A stretch of 64,000 bases of DNA from Escherichia coli (GCF_029227855.1 NZ_CP074356.1), one strand, 5' to 3'. Positions 15,981 through 50,872 are shown, counted from the first letter of the stretch. Program-made: numbers and translations. Notes: generated by a model from the sequence alone, not told the origin.

Positions 15981-16030
15981 TATCCTTTGTGTCCGGCAAA
16001 AACATCCCTTCAGCCGGAGCATAGAGATTA

Positions 16031-18054: not shown

Positions 18055-19173
18055 ATGAAATACGATCTCATCATTATTGGCAGCGGTTCCGTAGGCGCTG
18101 CCGCCGGGTATTATGCAACCCGTGCCGGTTTAAACGTGCTAATGACCGACGCCCATATGCCACCACATCAACACGGCAGCCACCACGGCGATACGCGATT
18201 AATTCGCCATGCTTATGGTGAAGGCGAAAAGTATGTCCCGCTGGTTCTCCGCGCGCAAACGCTGTGGGATGAACTCTCCCGCCACAACGAAGAAGATCCC
18301 ATTTTTGTACGCTCTGGCGTCATTAACCTTGGCCCGGCTGATTCCACATTTCTCGCCAACGTCGCCCACAGCGCCGAACAATGGCAACTCAACGTTGAAA
18401 AGCTCGATGCGCAAGGGATTATGGCCCGCTGGCCAGAAATACGCGTCCCGGACAACTACATCGGCTTATTTGAGACTGATTCCGGTTTTTTGCGCAGCGA
18501 ACTGGCGATTAAAACCTGGATCCAACTGGCGAAGGAAGCGGGCTGTGCGCAGCTGTTCAACTGCCCGGTCACCGCAATTCGTCATGACGATGATGGCGTA
18601 ACTATTGAAACGGCTGACGGTGATTATCAGGCGAAAAAAGCGATTGTCTGCGCGGGAACATGGGTAAAAGACCTGCTCCCGGAGCTGCCTGTCCAGCCCG
18701 TACGCAAAGTATTTGCCTGGTATCAGGCCGATGGTCGCTATAGCGTGAAGAATAAATTCCCGGCGTTTACCGGTGAACTGCCCAATGGCGATCAATATTA
18801 TGGTTTTCCGGCAGAAAACGACGCGTTGAAGATTGGCAAACATAACGGAGGCCAGGTTATCCATTCAGCGGATGAACGTGTTCCGTTTGCGGAAGTGGTC
18901 AGCGATGGTTCGGAAGCCTTCCCGTTCTTGCGCAATGTATTGCCGGGTACCGGTTGCTGCCTGTACGGCGCTGCCTGCACCTATGATAATTCGCCTGACG
19001 AAGATTTTATTATCGATACCCTACCCGACCACGATAATACACTGCTCATTACCGGCCTGAGTGGGCACGGTTTTAAATTTGCGTCAGTTTTAGGGGAAAT
19101 AGCTGCCGATTTTGCGCAAGACAAAAAAAGCGATTTTGATTTGACGCCATTCAGGCTTTCCCGCTTCCAATAA
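18055..19173 (+). CDS. solA: N-methyl-L-tryptophan oxidase SolA (FAD-dependent)
   Basis: 372 aa [37 protein letters not shown] (GxGxxG FAD motif). Confidence 0.95.
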
Positions 19174-19220
19174 TCATCATTACGGCCTCCAGAATGAGGC
19201 CGTTTTTACAGGAGTATTTA

Positions 19221-19334
19221 ATGCGTCGGCTGTTGCACTATCTCATCAATAATATTCGCGAGCATCTGATGCTTTATCTTTTTCTCTGGGGATTGTTGGC
19301 AATTATGGATCTGATCTATGTGTTTTATTTTTAG
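19221..19334 (+). CDS. yceO: Small hydrophobic protein YceO (not in the supplied ORF track)
   Basis: ATG preceded by AGGAG; reads [37 protein letters not shown] then stop; position between solA and yceJ. Confidence 0.5.
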
Positions 19335-19594
19335 TTTTCCGCACTGACATAAACTGACAAATATTTAATCTCCCTTTCATTTAGCGTGAAAAATTGAATG
19401 AGATTATTCCTGCTTCTACAGCACTCACCAGACATCTCTGATGCTGAACCCACTAAACTTATGAAGATTCTTTCATTATTAATTCAAAATTATTGAAATA
19501 AAAATAAATATCATTCAATTTGTTATTTTTGTGTTGCAATTCATTCTCCGACACGCCATTTTCTTTCTCTCGCAAATTCGTTTTGGATGCACTT

Positions 19595-20161
19595 ATGTCA
19601 TTCACAAATACCCCTGAACGCTATGGTGTTATATCTGCGGCCTTCCATTGGCTAAGCGCAATTATTGTCTACGGCATGTTTGCTTTAGGTCTGTGGATGG
19701 TCACGCTCAGTTATTACGATGGCTGGTATCACAAAGCACCCGAACTGCATAAAAGCATCGGTATTTTGTTAATGATGGGGCTGGTTATTCGCGTTCTGTG
19801 GCGCGTCATATCTCCACCGCCGGGTCCGCTGCAGAGTTATTCGCCCATGACTCGTCTTGGCGCAAAGGCTGGACATCTCGCATTGTACTTATTGCTGTTC
19901 GCCATCGGCATCAGCGGCTATCTGATCTCAACTGCCGATGGTAAACCGATCAGCGTTTTTGGCTGGTTTGACGTCCCCGCGACCCTCGCCGACGCTGGCG
20001 CACAGGCTGACTTCGCCGGTGCCCTGCATTTTTGGCTCGCGTGGAGCGTCGTAGTACTGTCCGTTATGCATGGATTTATGGCCCTGAAGCATCATTTCAT
20101 CGATAAAGACGACACTCTGAAGCGCATGCTGGGAAAGTCGTCATCTGACTATGGAGTATAA
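19595..20161 (+). CDS. yceJ: Cytochrome b561 family protein YceJ
   Basis: ORF 19520..20161; start placed at MSFTNTPERYGVISAAFHWLSAIIVYGMF (188 aa); membrane protein. Confidence 0.88.
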   Translation: MSFTNTPERYGVISAAFHWLSAIIVYGMFALGLWMVTLSYYDGWYHKAPELHKSIGILLMMGLVIRVLWRVISPPPGPLQSYSPMTRLGAKAGHLALYLLLFAIGISGYLISTADGKPISVFGWFDVPATLADAGAQADFAGALHFWLAWSVVVLSVMHGFMALKHHFIDKDDTLKRMLGKSSSDYGV

Positions 20162-25126: not shown

Positions 25127-25224
25127 GCCAGATGTGGCGTGAACGCCTTATCCGACCTACAAAATCTTGCAAAATCAACACATTGCAGGAGCGATGTAGG
25201 CCTGATAAGCGTAGCGCATCAGGC
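25127..25224. repeat. REP (repetitive extragenic palindromic) elements
   Basis: REP-like units GCCAGATGTGGCGTGAACGCCTTATCCGACCTAC and GATGTAGGCCTGATAAGCGTAGCGCATCAGGC. Confidence 0.75.
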
Positions 25225-33692: not shown

Positions 33693-34403
33693 AATAAATA
33701 TCCTCCGGCATAGCCGGAGGTTTTTCAAATGCGCCTATAAGGCTCTCTTACCAGCCGCGCCCTAACAGGCGCACACGATCTGACATTTGCATCCAACTTC
33801 GTTACTTACGGCCCGTAAACGGGCTGCCCGGATAGGGAATCGATAACTGCTCTCCCATTTTATCCTCTTCAAGCTGGTGCTTTATGTAATCCTGTATCTT
33901 CGCCGTGTTCTTACCCACCGTATCGACGTAGTACCCTCTGCACCAGAACTCCCTGTTCCTGTATTTGAATTTCAAATCACCAAACTGCTCGTAAAGCATC
34001 AGACTGCTTTTCCCTTTCAGATATCCCATAAAGCCGGATACGCTCATTTTGGGCGGGATCTCCACAAGCATATGGATATGATCTGCACAGCATTCAGCTT
34101 CCAGAATCCGTACACTTTTCCACTCACACAGCTTTCTCAAAATACTGCCTATTGCTCTACGCTTCTCTCTGTAGAACACCTGTCTTCGGTATTTTGGCGC
34201 AAAAACTATGTGATATTTACAGTTCCATCGGGTGTGCGCTAAGCTCTTTTCGTTCCCCATTGGGACCCCCTTTTGATTTCTTGTTTGACACTTGCAGTTG
34301 CCAGACCGCAAGGTGTTTTAACAAATCAAAAGGGGTTTTAATAACTGGCTTAAAGCTGAAAGCTTTCCGGAACCCCCAGCCTAGCTGGGGGTTTTCTGTG
34401 CAC
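33693..34403 (-). mobile_element. IS200-type insertion sequence (IS200/IS605 family), about 0.7 kb, between the csgA terminator and the csgC RBS
   Basis: Y1/HUH transposase ORF flanked by subterminal hairpins (CCCCCAGC-TA-GCTGGGGG at 34372..34391; CCTCCGGC-ATA-GCCGGAGG at 33702..33720); the csgA-csgC spacer is about 770 bp here against a few tens of bp remembered for K-12. Boundaries are approximate. Confidence 0.8.
33802..34260 (-). CDS. tnpA: IS200 transposase TnpA (Y1 HUH single-strand transposase)
   Basis: ORF 33802..34311; start placed at MGNEKSLAHTRWNCKYHIVFAPKYRR (152 aa); HIHMLV HUH motif. Confidence 0.9.
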   Translation of the reverse strand: MGNEKSLAHTRWNCKYHIVFAPKYRRQVFYREKRRAIGSILRKLCEWKSVRILEAECCADHIHMLVEIPPKMSVSGFMGYLKGKSSLMLYEQFGDLKFKYRNREFWCRGYYVDTVGKNTAKIQDYIKHQLEEDKMGEQLSIPYPGSPFTGRK

Positions 34404-35400: not shown

Positions 35401-36155
35401 GTTGTCACCCTGGACCTGGTCGTACATTTAAGAAATTAAATCATTTCAACTTGGTTGTTAACGCAACATGTATTTTGTTAACGCTGCGTTACGATGGAAA
35501 GTATGTCTGCGGAAATATTTTTAATAACTCACCCGCGCGTTGTATTTTTCTTTTTTTGTTCATACCAAAGTATTAAAACCCACGTAAATACGCTGTTATC
35601 TACGCAAAAAAAAATATTTTGTTTTCTTTTAAATCTCCGTTTTCCGCAATCAAAAATCACCAGACAGCCATTCTTCTTGCCCGTCGCTGATTGCTGCGAT
35701 ATGTCTTGCGCACAAGCCGTGACAAACCTCGTCTTTTTGCAGTAAAAAATTGTCCACGGAGGTGTGAAGAAAAAACAACAACGTTTTACATGACGAAAGG
35801 ACTACACCGAAATATTTTTTATATGCATTATTAGTAAGTTAGCACCATTTGTATGATTTTTTAAAATTGTGCAATAAAAACCAAATGTACAACTTTTCTA
35901 TCATTTCTAACTTAACAAAACCTTAAGATTAACATTTTAATATAACGAGTTACATTTAGTTACATGTTTAACACTTGATTTAAGATTTGTAATGGCTAGA
36001 TTGAAATCAGATGTAATCCATTAGTTTTATATTTTACCCATTTAGGGCTGATTTATTACTACACACAGCAGTGCAACATCTGTCAGTACTTCTGGTGCTT
36101 CTATTTTAGAGGCAGCTGTCAGGTGTGCGATCAATAAAAAAAGCGGGGTTTCATC
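35401..36155. promoter_or_regulatory. Divergent csgBAC / csgDEFG regulatory region
   Basis: 755-bp AT-rich spacer between csgB and csgD starts, the known multi-factor curli control region. Confidence 0.8.
35960..35985. promoter_or_regulatory. OmpR binding site upstream of csgD
   Basis: GTTACATTTAGTTACATGTTTAACAC, direct GTTACAT repeats matching the known csgD OmpR site. Confidence 0.7.
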
Positions 36156-41700: not shown

Positions 41701-41788
41701 GGTGAGGTGTCCGAGTGGCTGAAGGAGCACGCCTGGAAAGTGTGTATACGGCAACGTATCGGGGGTTCGAATCCCCCCCTCACCGCCA
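41701..41788 (+). tRNA. serX: tRNA-Ser (anticodon GGA), serX-type
   Basis: 88-nt GGTGAGGTGTCCGAGTGGCTGAAGGAGCACGCCTGGAAAGTG...GGTTCGAATCCCCCCCTCACCGCCA; long variable arm, encoded CCA; terminator follows. Confidence 0.93.
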
Positions 41789-50083: not shown

Positions 50084-50872
50084 TTAACTGTATGCATGTA
50101 GCGTACGTTGGCAAAGTGCCGAACGTACGCAATCCTCTTTACCGAATCGGACGATCCCGACCATTTCATCTTCTTCGAAACGTTCCAGCGCGTCACTTAA
50201 TCCGGAGCGCACGCCGCGAGGCAAATCGCATTGCGTGATATCACCGTTGACGATAACCGTCACGTTCTCCCCGAGGCGGGTTAAAAACATTTTCATTTGC
50301 GCGGCAGTCACATTCTGCGCCTCGTCAAGAATGACGACTGCATTTTCAAAGGTACGTCCACGCATATAGGCGAACGGCGCAATTTCCACCTTCCCTATTT
50401 CCGGTCGCAGGCAGTACTGCATAAAGGAAGCCCCTAAGCGCCGGACCAGCACGTCGTAGACCGGACGAAAATAGGGAGCAAACTTTTCTGCGATATCTCC
50501 AGGTAAGAAGCCAAGATCTTCATCGGCTTGCAGAACTGGACGGGTGACGATAATCCTGTCGACATCCTTATGTATCAGGGCCTCTGCCGCTTTTGCTGCG
50601 CTGATCCAGGTTTTTCCGCACCCGGCTTCGCCCGTGGCGAATATCAGCTGCTTACTCTCAATAGCCTTCAGATAGTGCAATTGCGCTTCATTTCGCGCGA
50701 GGATGGGCGAGGTATCGCGACTGTCGCGGGCCATACCAATGGCTTCTACGCCGCTCATCTGCACAAGCGAGGTGACCGATTCTTCTTCACGCTGCTTATG
50801 GCTGCGCGAATCCCGTCTCAGCACACGTTTTGCCTCGCGACGAGCTTTGATCACTGCTTTTTGTCTTCCCAT
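50084..50872 (-). CDS. phoH: Phosphate-starvation-inducible ATPase PhoH (conserved core); upstream start unresolved
   Basis: Core MGRQKAVIKARREAKRV...GEAGCGKTW (Walker A) to ...LHAYS. Same frame stays open up to a GTG at 51007; a different-frame ATG at 51147 opens a 98-codon ORF that ends at 50851. Confidence 0.85.
   Translation of the reverse strand: MGRQKAVIKARREAKRVLRRDSRSHKQREEESVTSLVQMSGVEAIGMARDSRDTSPILARNEAQLHYLKAIESKQLIFATGEAGCGKTWISAAKAAEALIHKDVDRIIVTRPVLQADEDLGFLPGDIAEKFAPYFRPVYDVLVRRLGASFMQYCLRPEIGKVEIAPFAYMRGRTFENAVVILDEAQNVTAAQMKMFLTRLGENVTVIVNGDITQCDLPRGVRSGLSDALERFEEDEMVGIVRFGKEDCVRSALCQRTLHAYS

What the first reader, a model, noticed from the sequence alone, without database searches (positions are those of the whole stretch)
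19221..19334. Short hydrophobic ORF between solA and yceJ is missed by the ORF track
A 37-codon ORF with a strong AGGAG RBS encodes a single predicted transmembrane helix ([37 protein letters not shown]), matching the position expected for yceO. Small membrane proteins of this kind are easily missed and mostly have unknown function.
Basis: partly seen in the sequence, partly recalled or inferred. Interest (0 to 1): 0.15.

Follow-up and report, generated by a model that had tools for sequence, protein, structure and literature searches.

The report
yceO, a known small membrane protein
The 37-codon ORF is real and is the already annotated E. coli gene yceO, a conserved one-helix membrane protein of unknown mechanism, so the finding is correct but ordinary.

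Summary
Window 19221-19334 (+) is a 37-codon ORF with an AGGAG Shine-Dalgarno sequence 6 nt upstream, between solA and yceJ. RefSeq annotates exactly these coordinates as "YceO family protein". It matches Pfam DUF2770 end to end. The segment is present in 5411 of 5426 complete E. coli genomes.

An ORF this long arises by chance in about a third of shuffles of this AT-rich gap. The evidence that it is a gene is comparative. A 37-39 aa homologue sits directly after solA in 52 of 54 solA-anchored Enterobacteriaceae loci that extend past solA. dN/dS is about 0.14, against 0.9 and 2.7 in the shifted frames.

Published work detects chromosomally tagged YceO protein at low levels and lists it as an acid-stress small protein.

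Added value:
- The 37-aa start, not the 46-aa start annotated in K-12, is the conserved one. The K-12 ATG lies in the loop of the solA terminator hairpin and has no Shine-Dalgarno sequence.
- YceO persists where yceJ-yceI is lost, so it is not an obligate YceJ subunit.
- N11, R13, H15 and a membrane-embedded D30 are invariant.

The most likely mechanism is a single-pass modulator of a larger membrane protein; this is inferred. Verdict: already known, low interest.

The parts
18055..19173 (+). solA (N-methyl-L-tryptophan oxidase), the invariable upstream neighbour of yceO
   Evidence: Pfam DAO match, E 7.9e-51. RefSeq annotation. Every YceO homologue examined lies directly downstream of solA.
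19182..19207 (+). GC-rich hairpin (stem 19182-19189 / 19196-19203, loop 19190-19195) followed by TTTTT (19203-19207). Probably the solA intrinsic terminator, and part of the 5' region of any read-through yceO mRNA.
   Evidence: The centroid fold shows an 8-bp stem at -14.5 kcal/mol. A hairpin at this position occurs in about all 52 loci. Five of 7 consensus pairs show compensatory double changes. The T-run is good in Escherichia and Citrobacter and poor in Kluyvera. The consensus terminator scan did not call it.
19194..19196 (+). In-frame upstream ATG used as the start of the 46-aa yceO (b1058) in the K-12 MG1655 annotation. Probably not the native start.
   Evidence: K-12 annotates 141 nt. 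The ATG lies in the hairpin loop and first stem base. Its best SD:anti-SD pairing is -1.7 kcal/mol. An ATG at -9 occurs only in part of Escherichia plus one chance case. The Pfam profile starts at residue 10 of the 46-aa form.
19210..19214 (+). Shine-Dalgarno sequence AGGAG, 6 nt upstream of the yceO start
   Evidence: Read from the sequence. Pairing with the 16S 3' end is -6.9 kcal/mol, with 4.9% of random positions reaching -6 or lower. A purine-rich SD-like element precedes the conserved start in most genera: 57% of loci reach -4 or lower against 16% of background positions.
19221..19334 (+). yceO coding sequence, 37 codons plus TAG. It encodes a single-helix small membrane protein of the YceO/DUF2770 family.
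   Evidence: sequence; RefSeq CDS at the same coordinates; PF10968, 79.1 bits; orthologues of 37-39 aa in 52 loci; dN/dS 0.14-0.16; TM segment 16-37, single helix; PMC12529367 (protein detected).
19343..19359 (+). Tandem direct repeat ACTGACA-TAA-ACTGACA (YTGACA-N4-YTGACA, 10-bp period) just after the yceO stop. It belongs to the yceJ-yceI upstream region, not to yceO.
   Evidence: Conserved in nearly all loci that carry yceJ-yceI and absent from loci that lack them. Retained in L035, where yceO itself is deleted.
19595..20161 (+). yceJ (cytochrome b561 family), the downstream neighbour in this window but not a constant partner of yceO
   Evidence: Pfam Ni_hydr_CYTB. RefSeq annotation. Absent from 13 solA-anchored loci and from L061, all of which keep an intact yceO.

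Best explanation
This is yceO, a real and already annotated protein-coding gene of Enterobacteriaceae. Translation most likely starts at ATG 19221, using the AGGAG at 19210-19214, and gives a 37-residue protein that is one continuous alpha-helix. The N-terminal 15 residues are amphipathic and net positive, with the nearly invariant motif N10-N11-x-R13-E14-H15. Residues 16-37 are a transmembrane segment that carries an invariant Asp30 and ends in an aromatic cluster.

By the positive-inside rule the N-terminus faces the cytoplasm and the C-terminus reaches the periplasmic face of the inner membrane. This orientation is inferred. The gene sits 47 nt behind solA, directly after a conserved GC-rich hairpin that looks like the solA terminator in Escherichia. 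The low YceO level reported is therefore most simply explained by transcriptional read-through from solA. This too is inferred; no promoter was found.

The most likely mode of action is that of other bacterial single-pass small proteins such as AcrZ, MgtS, MgrB and CydX. YceO would bind a larger inner-membrane protein through its invariant polar residues and tune that protein's activity or stability, contributing to tolerance of acid and envelope stress. This is inferred from the class and from second-hand phenotype reports, and the partner is unknown.

My confidence that this is the yceO gene encoding a 37-aa membrane helix is about 0.95. My confidence in the modulator-of-a-larger-membrane-protein mechanism is about 0.4.
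For: Identity: RefSeq has a CDS at exactly these coordinates. K-12 has yceO/b1058 at the same position. Pfam PF10968 matches at E 2.4e-22, covering all 36 profile positions. The segment is in 5411 of 5426 complete E. coli genomes.

Coding: a 37-39 aa orthologue lies directly after solA in 52 of 54 loci from many genera. dN/dS is 0.14 in frame against 0.90 and 2.7 in the shifted frames, and all 35 third positions vary against 18 of 35 second positions. In the same genomes YceO scores 0.16 and SolA 0.08, and the antisense frames are broken by stops in most sequences.

Start codon: the M1 codon is ATG in 47 of 53 sequences, GTG in 5 and ATA in 1. Most genera have no upstream in-frame start. SD pairing is -6.9 against -1.7 kcal/mol for the two candidate starts. 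The upstream ATG lies in the hairpin.

Fold and topology. Invariant residues N11, R13, H15 and D30.

Protein existence and low abundance: chromosomal YceO-SPA is seen by immunoblot and YceO by top-down MS (PMC12529367). Phenotype label 'acid stress small protein', citing Hobbs et al. 2010: PMC12997748 and PMC8765455.
Against: No binding partner, membrane localisation or topology is shown here or in any paper I could read. The primary sources (Hemm 2008, Hemm 2010, Hobbs 2010) are not held. The acid-stress role is therefore second-hand. Other omics mentions are scattered and inconsistent.

No solved structure contains a relative. Native N-terminus data could not be retrieved. The peptide [11 protein letters not shown] from the 46-aa form was seen, but only from a plasmid that expresses the annotated ORF.

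No sigma-70-like promoter was found on the + strand near the gene. Read-through of the hairpin is not demonstrated.
Confidence: 0.9

Rival explanations
1. The true product is the 46-aa protein starting at ATG 19194 ([13 protein letters not shown]...), as annotated for b1058 in K-12 MG1655.
For: K-12 RefSeq annotates 141 nt. Many database entries from E. coli and Shigella are 46 aa. It is the longest ATG-initiated ORF. The peptide [11 protein letters not shown] was detected by MS when the annotated ORF was expressed from pBAD24.
Against: The ATG lies in the loop and stem of the solA terminator hairpin. It has no SD sequence: -1.7 against -6.9 kcal/mol. An ATG at -9 exists only in some Escherichia; other Escherichia species have GTG or TTG there, and most genera have no in-frame upstream start at all. 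The Pfam profile begins exactly at residue 10. PGAP aa. The MS peptide came only from the plasmid construct, never from wild type.
Confidence: 0.08
2. YceO works with SolA, for example by tethering the flavoenzyme to the membrane or by modulating it. The two genes would form a functional pair expressed from one transcript.
For: Every YceO homologue found, including the most divergent representatives, lies 40-130 nt downstream of solA on the same strand. The amphipathic, polar-motif N-terminus would face the cytoplasm, where SolA is.
Against: The whole pyrC-dinI-bssS-solA-yceO-trhO-lpxL block is syntenic and vertically inherited, so adjacency may be inertia rather than function. The search was anchored on solA, which biases the sample. 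A conserved hairpin, terminator-like in several genera, separates the two genes. Two genomes keep solA without yceO (L035, L051). No interaction data exist.
Confidence: 0.12
3. YceO is a small accessory subunit or regulator of the neighbouring cytochrome b561 YceJ (with YceI), as CydX is for cytochrome bd.
For: In this window and in most genera, yceO is followed on the same strand by yceJ-yceI. Small single-helix subunits of respiratory membrane complexes are a known pattern.
Against: An intact yceO is kept in 13 species that lack yceJ-yceI at this locus (E. albertii, Kluyvera, Pseudocitrobacter, Yokenella, Pluralibacter) and in L061. L035 keeps yceJ-yceI after a clean deletion of yceO. A 260-nt spacer with its own conserved elements separates yceO from yceJ. 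A paralogue elsewhere in those genomes was not excluded.
Confidence: 0.06
4. It is a type I toxin-like hydrophobic peptide, kept silent by low expression or by an antisense RNA.
For: The peptide is short, hydrophobic and expressed at very low levels. One weak sigma-70-like match lies on the minus strand at 19518-19489, pointing towards yceO.
Against: No Rfam family lies in or near the gene. The minus-strand match is within chance expectation: 1 found against 2.0 expected. The gene is single-copy, at a fixed locus, vertically inherited and under purifying selection across a whole family. Its conserved residues are specific polar ones rather than general hydrophobicity. The overexpression study mentions no toxicity or growth defect.
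Confidence: 0.03
5. It is a leader peptide or upstream ORF whose translation, not its product, regulates yceJ-yceI. Alternatively it is a chance ORF.
For: It is a short ORF upstream of an operon, and an ORF of this length is common by chance in this AT-rich gap (33% of shuffles).
Against: The amino-acid sequence is under purifying selection (dN/dS 0.14) and has invariant residues. The ORF is retained where yceJ-yceI is absent. It lies 260 nt from yceJ. The protein accumulates and is detectable.
Confidence: 0.01

Closest known systems
YceO (b1058) of E. coli K-12; Pfam PF10968 / DUF2770, 'YceO family protein'
   Same: Same gene. The 37-aa sequence equals RefSeq WP_001253418.1 and residues 10-46 of K-12 YceO. 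The genomic position is the same, between solA and yceJ.
   Different: Nothing differs in sequence. Only the annotated start differs between K-12 (46 aa) and PGAP and this reading (37 aa). The comparative evidence here favours 37 aa.
Single-pass small inner-membrane modulators of E. coli (AcrZ-AcrB, MgtS-MgtA, MgrB-PhoQ, CydX-CydAB), as a functional class known from the literature
   Same: Size of 30-50 aa, one transmembrane helix, low or condition-dependent abundance, detection by SPA tagging, and stress-related deletion phenotypes.
   Different: There is no sequence similarity to any of them, and no partner is known for YceO. YceO has an unusually conserved polar juxtamembrane motif (NN-x-REH) and a buried Asp. 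The resemblance is one of class, not homology.
Type I toxins (Ldr, Hok, TisB, IbsC, ShoB)
   Same: Short hydrophobic peptide, very low expression.
   Different: YceO has no antisense RNA or known sRNA family and is not multicopy or mobile. It shows family-wide purifying selection on specific polar residues, and no toxicity is reported on induction.

Membership tests
YceO / DUF2770 (Pfam PF10968) | Match to the family HMM above the curated gathering score | tested here: met
   79.1 bits against a cut-off of 25, E 2.4e-22, profile positions 1-36 of 36.
YceO / DUF2770 (Pfam PF10968) | Length of about 37 aa with the conserved core MRRL..YL.NNIREH.MLY..LW.LLA..D.IY | tested here: met
   Orthologues are 37-39 aa. 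N11, R13, H15 and D30 are invariant. M1, R3, N10, E14, Y19, W23 and A27 are at least 90% conserved.
YceO / DUF2770 (Pfam PF10968) | Position immediately downstream of solA in Enterobacteriaceae | tested here: met
   Seen in 52 of 54 solA-anchored loci and in 3 of 3 loci found through divergent YceO representatives.
Protein-coding gene (as opposed to a chance ORF) | Purifying selection in the stated frame only | tested here: met
   dN/dS is 0.14 in frame against 0.90 and 2.7 in the shifted frames. Third codon positions are the most variable. Antisense frames carry stops.
Protein-coding gene (as opposed to a chance ORF) | Protein product detected | tested here: met
   From the literature rather than computed here. 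Chromosomal YceO-SPA is seen by immunoblot and YceO by top-down MS (PMC12529367).
Single-pass small inner-membrane regulatory proteins (AcrZ / MgtS / MgrB / CydX class) | One hydrophobic transmembrane helix in a protein of 50 aa or fewer | tested here: met
   Residues 16-37 have a Kyte-Doolittle mean up to 2.15 and a Wimley-White free energy of about -13 kcal/mol. AF2 gives a single helix at pLDDT 94.5.
Single-pass small inner-membrane regulatory proteins (AcrZ / MgtS / MgrB / CydX class) | Membrane localisation and defined topology | not testable with these tools
   N-in/C-out is inferred only from the charge distribution: 3 Arg against 1 Glu in residues 1-15 and no positive charge after residue 15.
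Single-pass small inner-membrane regulatory proteins (AcrZ / MgtS / MgrB / CydX class) | Physical association with a larger membrane protein whose activity or stability it changes | not testable with these tools
   No partner is known and no PDB chain is related. The phyletic pattern argues against YceJ as an obligate partner.
Type I toxin-antitoxin | Cognate antisense or overlapping sRNA | tested here: inconclusive
   No Rfam family lies at the locus. One minus-strand promoter-like match is within chance. No transcriptome data are available here.
Type I toxin-antitoxin | Toxicity on overexpression | not testable with these tools
   The only induction study I could read does not mention toxicity or a growth defect. 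This is absence of evidence, not a test.
Leader peptide / regulatory uORF of yceJ-yceI | Dependence on the downstream operon, with selection on translation rather than on the peptide sequence | tested here: not met
   The ORF is retained intact where yceJ-yceI is absent, and its peptide sequence is under purifying selection.
Rho-independent terminator (for the hairpin at 19182-19207) | GC-rich stem-loop immediately followed by a U-run | tested here: met
   The window has an 8-bp stem, a 6-nt loop and TTTTT. The stem is conserved with compensatory changes. However, the U-run is weak or absent in Kluyvera and some other genera, and the simple consensus scan did not call the site. Termination efficiency is untested.

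The most novel reading that the evidence does not exclude
The most novel reading still open has two parts. First, the K-12 reference start of yceO is 9 codons too long. Second, the 37-aa protein is a dedicated membrane partner of the cytoplasmic flavoenzyme SolA (N-methyltryptophan oxidase), made by read-through of a conserved hairpin, rather than a generic stress peptide. YceO has been fixed directly behind solA throughout Enterobacteriaceae and survives loss of yceJ-yceI.
Probability: 0.1. Interest if true: 0.35.

Novelty: already known. Interest (0 to 1): 0.1.

Why it matters
It matters little as a discovery. yceO is annotated in essentially every E. coli genome, has its own Pfam family, and has been tagged, deleted and detected by the Storz laboratory. 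The modest value here is threefold.

- Comparative evidence says the K-12/UniProt 46-aa model probably starts 9 codons too early. This affects the choice of MS target peptides ([11 protein letters not shown] would not exist natively) and construct design.
- The phyletic pattern argues against YceJ as an obligate partner. That removes the obvious neighbour-based partner guess and leaves solA as the only constant neighbour.
- Four invariant polar residues (N11, R13, H15, D30) are obvious targets for mutagenesis in a protein whose mechanism is still unknown.

Tried and rejected
- Chance ORF: rejected on conservation and dN/dS, although length alone is not significant.
- 46-aa start: judged unlikely.
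- Leader peptide for yceJ-yceI, and obligate YceJ subunit: rejected on the phyletic pattern.
- Antisense-strand gene: rejected because stops occur in most sequences.
- Known RNA family at the locus: none found.
- SD sequestration by mRNA structure: the SD had a 0.93 pairing probability in one window, but its partner moved when the folding window changed and involved non-conserved codons. I dropped it as not robust.
- NCBIfam: no model hit for the 46-aa sequence.
- PDB sequence search with the family profile: no hit even at E = 10.
- Experimental start-site evidence: the MS paper's supplement is not held. The supplements of TRAINSPOTTER and of the Stringer et al. preprint do not mention yceO. 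No supplements are held for the Weaver preprint or the Mg-starvation preprint.
- Primary papers Hemm 2008, Hemm 2010, Hobbs 2010 and the EcoSal review are not held.
- A text search for 'b1058' returned only unrelated reference anchors.
- The 37-aa query was too short for the search for homologous proteins, so I used the 46-aa form.
- My own recollection that Tenorio et al. 2003 reported a biofilm phenotype could not be checked and is not used as evidence.

Full report
**1. What is in the sequence**

Window 19221-19334 on the + strand is an ATG...TAG ORF of 37 codons. AGGAG lies at 19210-19214, six bases before the ATG.

The ORF lies 47 nt after the stop of an FAD-dependent oxidase gene (18055-19173; Pfam DAO) and 260 nt before a cytochrome b561 gene (19595-20161). 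That gene is followed by a YceI-family gene. The mechanical ORF list reports a longer version of 46 aa, from an in-frame ATG at 19194.

Length alone proves nothing. In 5000 shuffles of the 421-nt, 35% G+C gap, 1673 contained an ATG-ORF of at least 37 codons.

**2. Identity**

The 551 bases around the ORF are found in 5424 of 5426 complete E. coli genomes. The 153 bases covering hairpin plus ORF are found in 5411 genomes at 80% coverage or more, and 5050 of these are at 99% identity or more.

It lies between solA and yceJ, within the block pyrC-dinI-bssS-solA-yceO-yceJ-yceI-trhO-lpxL. K-12 MG1655 has yceO (b1058) at the same place but annotates the 46-aa form.

Pfam DUF2770 (PF10968) matches at 79.1 bits against a cut-off of 25. 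The finding is therefore a known, annotated gene.

**3. Is it really coding?**

I fetched 56 solA-anchored loci, one genome per species. Of the 54 loci that extend past solA, 52 carry a YceO-like ORF immediately downstream. These span Escherichia, Citrobacter, Salmonella, Intestinirhabdus, Pseudescherichia, Enterobacter, Kosakonia, Leclercia, Kluyvera, Yokenella, Pluralibacter, Pseudocitrobacter and Siccibacter. ORF length is 37-39 aa in all of them except one Salmonella arizonae copy, which has an in-frame stop.

Across 51 distinct nucleotide sequences, all 35 third codon positions vary, against 18 of 35 second positions.

In one common set of 35 genomes, YceO scores 0.16 and the enzyme SolA 0.08. 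The three antisense frames carry stops in 23, 35 and 34 of the 35 sequences.

**4. Experimental support from the literature**

A 2025 Storz-laboratory paper (PMC12529367) deleted yceO, used a chromosomal yceO-SPA fusion made in Hemm et al. 2008, and saw the tagged protein by immunoblot. It estimated the level in LB to be at least 10,000-fold below that of plasmid induction. It also lists YceO among small proteins seen by top-down MS.

Bottom-up MS found the peptides [10 protein letters not shown] and [11 protein letters not shown] only when the annotated ORF was expressed from pBAD24, not in wild type.

Two papers label yceO an acid-stress small protein. One of them cites Hobbs, Astarita and Storz 2010 (PMC12997748; PMC8765455). 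I could not read that primary paper, nor Hemm 2008 or Hemm 2010, so the phenotype is second-hand. Other mentions are scattered omics hits.

**5. Which start codon?**

Four independent lines favour ATG 19221 (37 aa) over the K-12 start at 19194 (46 aa).

- The codon aligned to M1 is ATG in 47 of 53 sequences, GTG in 5 and ATA in 1. An in-frame ATG nine codons upstream exists only in part of Escherichia and in one chance case. Other Escherichia species have GTG or TTG there. Most other genera have no upstream in-frame start codon before a stop.
- The Pfam family model starts at this Met.
- The best SD:anti-SD pairing is -6.9 kcal/mol for 19221 and -1.7 kcal/mol for 19194. Only 4.9% of random window positions reach -6.
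- ATG 19194 lies in the loop and first stem base of a strong hairpin.

The plasmid-derived [11 protein letters not shown] peptide does not bear on the native start. I found no native N-terminal or initiation-profiling data. I put the 46-aa form at about 8%.

**6. Anatomy of the protein**

A profile alignment of 31 diverse members gives N11, R13, H15 and D30 as invariant. M1, R3, N10, E14, Y19, W23 and A27 are at least 90% conserved.

Residues 1-15 are amphipathic (hydrophobic moment 0.65) and carry 3 Arg against 1 Glu. Residues 16-37 are hydrophobic, with a Kyte-Doolittle 19-mer mean up to 2.15 and a Wimley-White octanol free energy of about -13 kcal/mol. This segment carries no positive charge and has the single Asp30.

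AlphaFold2 with this alignment gives one helix over residues 2-36 at mean pLDDT 94.5.

By the positive-inside rule the N-terminus should be cytoplasmic. That would place the NN-x-REH motif at the cytoplasmic interface and Asp30 in the outer leaflet. This orientation is inferred, not shown.

An exhaustive HMMER search of 1.84 billion representative proteins found only 38 hits. All true hits belong to this one enterobacterial family, and several are miscalled as fused to the SolA C-terminus. No PDB chain is related.

**7. Surroundings and what they say about function**

*Upstream.* A GC-rich hairpin (19182-19203) followed by TTTTT looks like the solA intrinsic terminator. A hairpin occupies this position in essentially every genus. 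The stem sequences differ, and 5 of 7 consensus pairs show compensatory double changes. The T-run is good in Escherichia and Citrobacter but nearly absent in Kluyvera. The yceO SD sequence begins 3-10 nt after the hairpin. No sigma-70-like promoter was found on the + strand nearby. Low-level expression by read-through from solA is the simplest reading, but it is inferred.

*Downstream.* YceO is not tied to yceJ-yceI. Thirteen species (E. albertii, Kluyvera, Pseudocitrobacter, Yokenella, Pluralibacter and others) lack yceJ-yceI at the locus yet keep an intact yceO. In those species it abuts or even overlaps the 3' end of the convergent trhO gene. Conversely, L035 keeps yceJ-yceI after a clean deletion of yceO. 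This argues against YceO being an obligate subunit of the cytochrome b561, and against a leader-peptide role.

*Constant neighbour.* The only constant same-strand neighbour is solA. This held even for the three most divergent YceO representatives that I traced to their contigs. The whole block is syntenic and vertically inherited, however, and most of my sample was anchored on solA. Adjacency is therefore weak evidence for a functional link.

**8. Mechanism**

*Shown:* this is a conserved, translated gene for a protein of about 37 aa that is predicted to be a single hydrophobic helix.

*Inferred:* it inserts N-in/C-out in the inner membrane. Like AcrZ, MgtS, MgrB or CydX, it binds a larger membrane protein through its invariant polar residues. 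The outcome is relevant to acid or envelope stress. I give this about 0.4.

*Rivals and my estimates:*
- a SolA-linked role, about 0.12;
- a YceJ accessory role, about 0.06;
- a type I toxin, about 0.03. There is no antisense RNA family, the gene is single-copy at a fixed locus, specific polar residues are conserved, and no toxicity is mentioned on induction;
- a leader peptide or chance ORF, about 0.01.

**9. Verdict**

The feature is already known: yceO/b1058, DUF2770.

What this analysis adds is small. The 37-aa start is better supported than the K-12 46-aa model. YceO is independent of yceJ-yceI. A conserved hairpin precedes the SD sequence. Four invariant polar residues are defined. Interest is low, about 0.1.

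Noticed in passing
window 19343-19359: Tandem direct repeat ACTGACA-TAA-ACTGACA (YTGACA-N4-YTGACA, 10-bp period) about 10 nt after the yceO stop. It is conserved in nearly all genera that carry yceJ-yceI and absent where yceJ-yceI is missing. It is retained in L035, where yceO is deleted. It looks like a -35-like element or a response-regulator-type site for yceJ-yceI. The regulator is unknown to me.
   Followed up: partly
window 19485-19560: A second conserved block in the yceO-yceJ spacer has column identity of 0.74-0.81, as high as the coding DNA. It includes the inverted repeat ATTGAA (19492-19497) ... TTCAAT (19514-19519). The spacer length of about 260 nt is nearly constant from Escherichia to Kosakonia.
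   Followed up: partly
L062 (NZ_CM190133.1) and L063 (NZ_LR134152.1), corresponding to window about 19335-19594: In rare E. coli strains an IS5 or an IS1A element has inserted in the AT-rich yceO-yceJ spacer and left yceO intact. In NCTC9104 solA is additionally annotated as frameshifted.
   Followed up: partly
L028 (Salmonella enterica subsp. arizonae), L035 (Enterobacter sp. BIGb0383), L051 (Shimwellia pseudoproteus): Lineage-specific losses of yceO. L028 has an in-frame stop at the conserved Trp23 codon. L035 has a clean deletion with the hairpin and the CTGACA repeats retained. L051 has neither yceO nor yceJ-yceI.
   Followed up: partly
L006, L040-L046, L048, L049, L054-L056, L061: yceJ-yceI is absent from the locus in E. 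albertii, Kluyvera, Pseudocitrobacter, Yokenella and Pluralibacter. In these genomes yceO is convergent with trhO at a spacing of 10-20 nt, and in L061 the two 3' ends overlap by 15 nt.
   Followed up: partly
window 19182-19207: The simple terminator scan reported no site in 18900-19700. Yet folding shows an 8-bp GC-rich stem, a 6-nt loop and TTTTT. A negative from that scan should not be read as absence.
   Followed up: yes
window 15981-16030, 25161-25203, 34270-34393 (-), 36009-36100, 41701-41785, 50089-50282: Rfam gathering-score hits elsewhere in the window: PyrC leader, ES036/CssrF, STnc490, ES056, a tRNA of 85 nt, and Ysr251. None is near yceO.
   Followed up: no
L057 (NZ_JAHZMO010000143.1, 492 nt): A 492-nt contig labelled Terrisporobacter petrolearius (a Firmicute) encodes a SolA fragment 98% identical to the E. 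coli protein. It is most likely assembly contamination.
   Followed up: no
E. coli plasmid records: Five matches to the solA-yceO-yceJ region are on records classed as plasmids in the complete-genome set. I did not inspect them. They could be misassigned replicons or captured chromosomal segments.
   Followed up: no
P0108 (241 aa): An unrelated protein made of five near-identical 51-aa repeats (FSIQHYVIKPVRDFLQVGGFLWVL...) scored E 8e-7 against YceO, probably through low-complexity similarity. It is not a family member.
   Followed up: no
window 19210-19215 with 19254-19259 or 19281-19287: The yceO SD sequence is predicted to be base-paired (probability about 0.9) with pyrimidine-rich codons inside the ORF. 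The partner changes with the folding window and the codons are not conserved, so I did not rely on this.
   Followed up: partly
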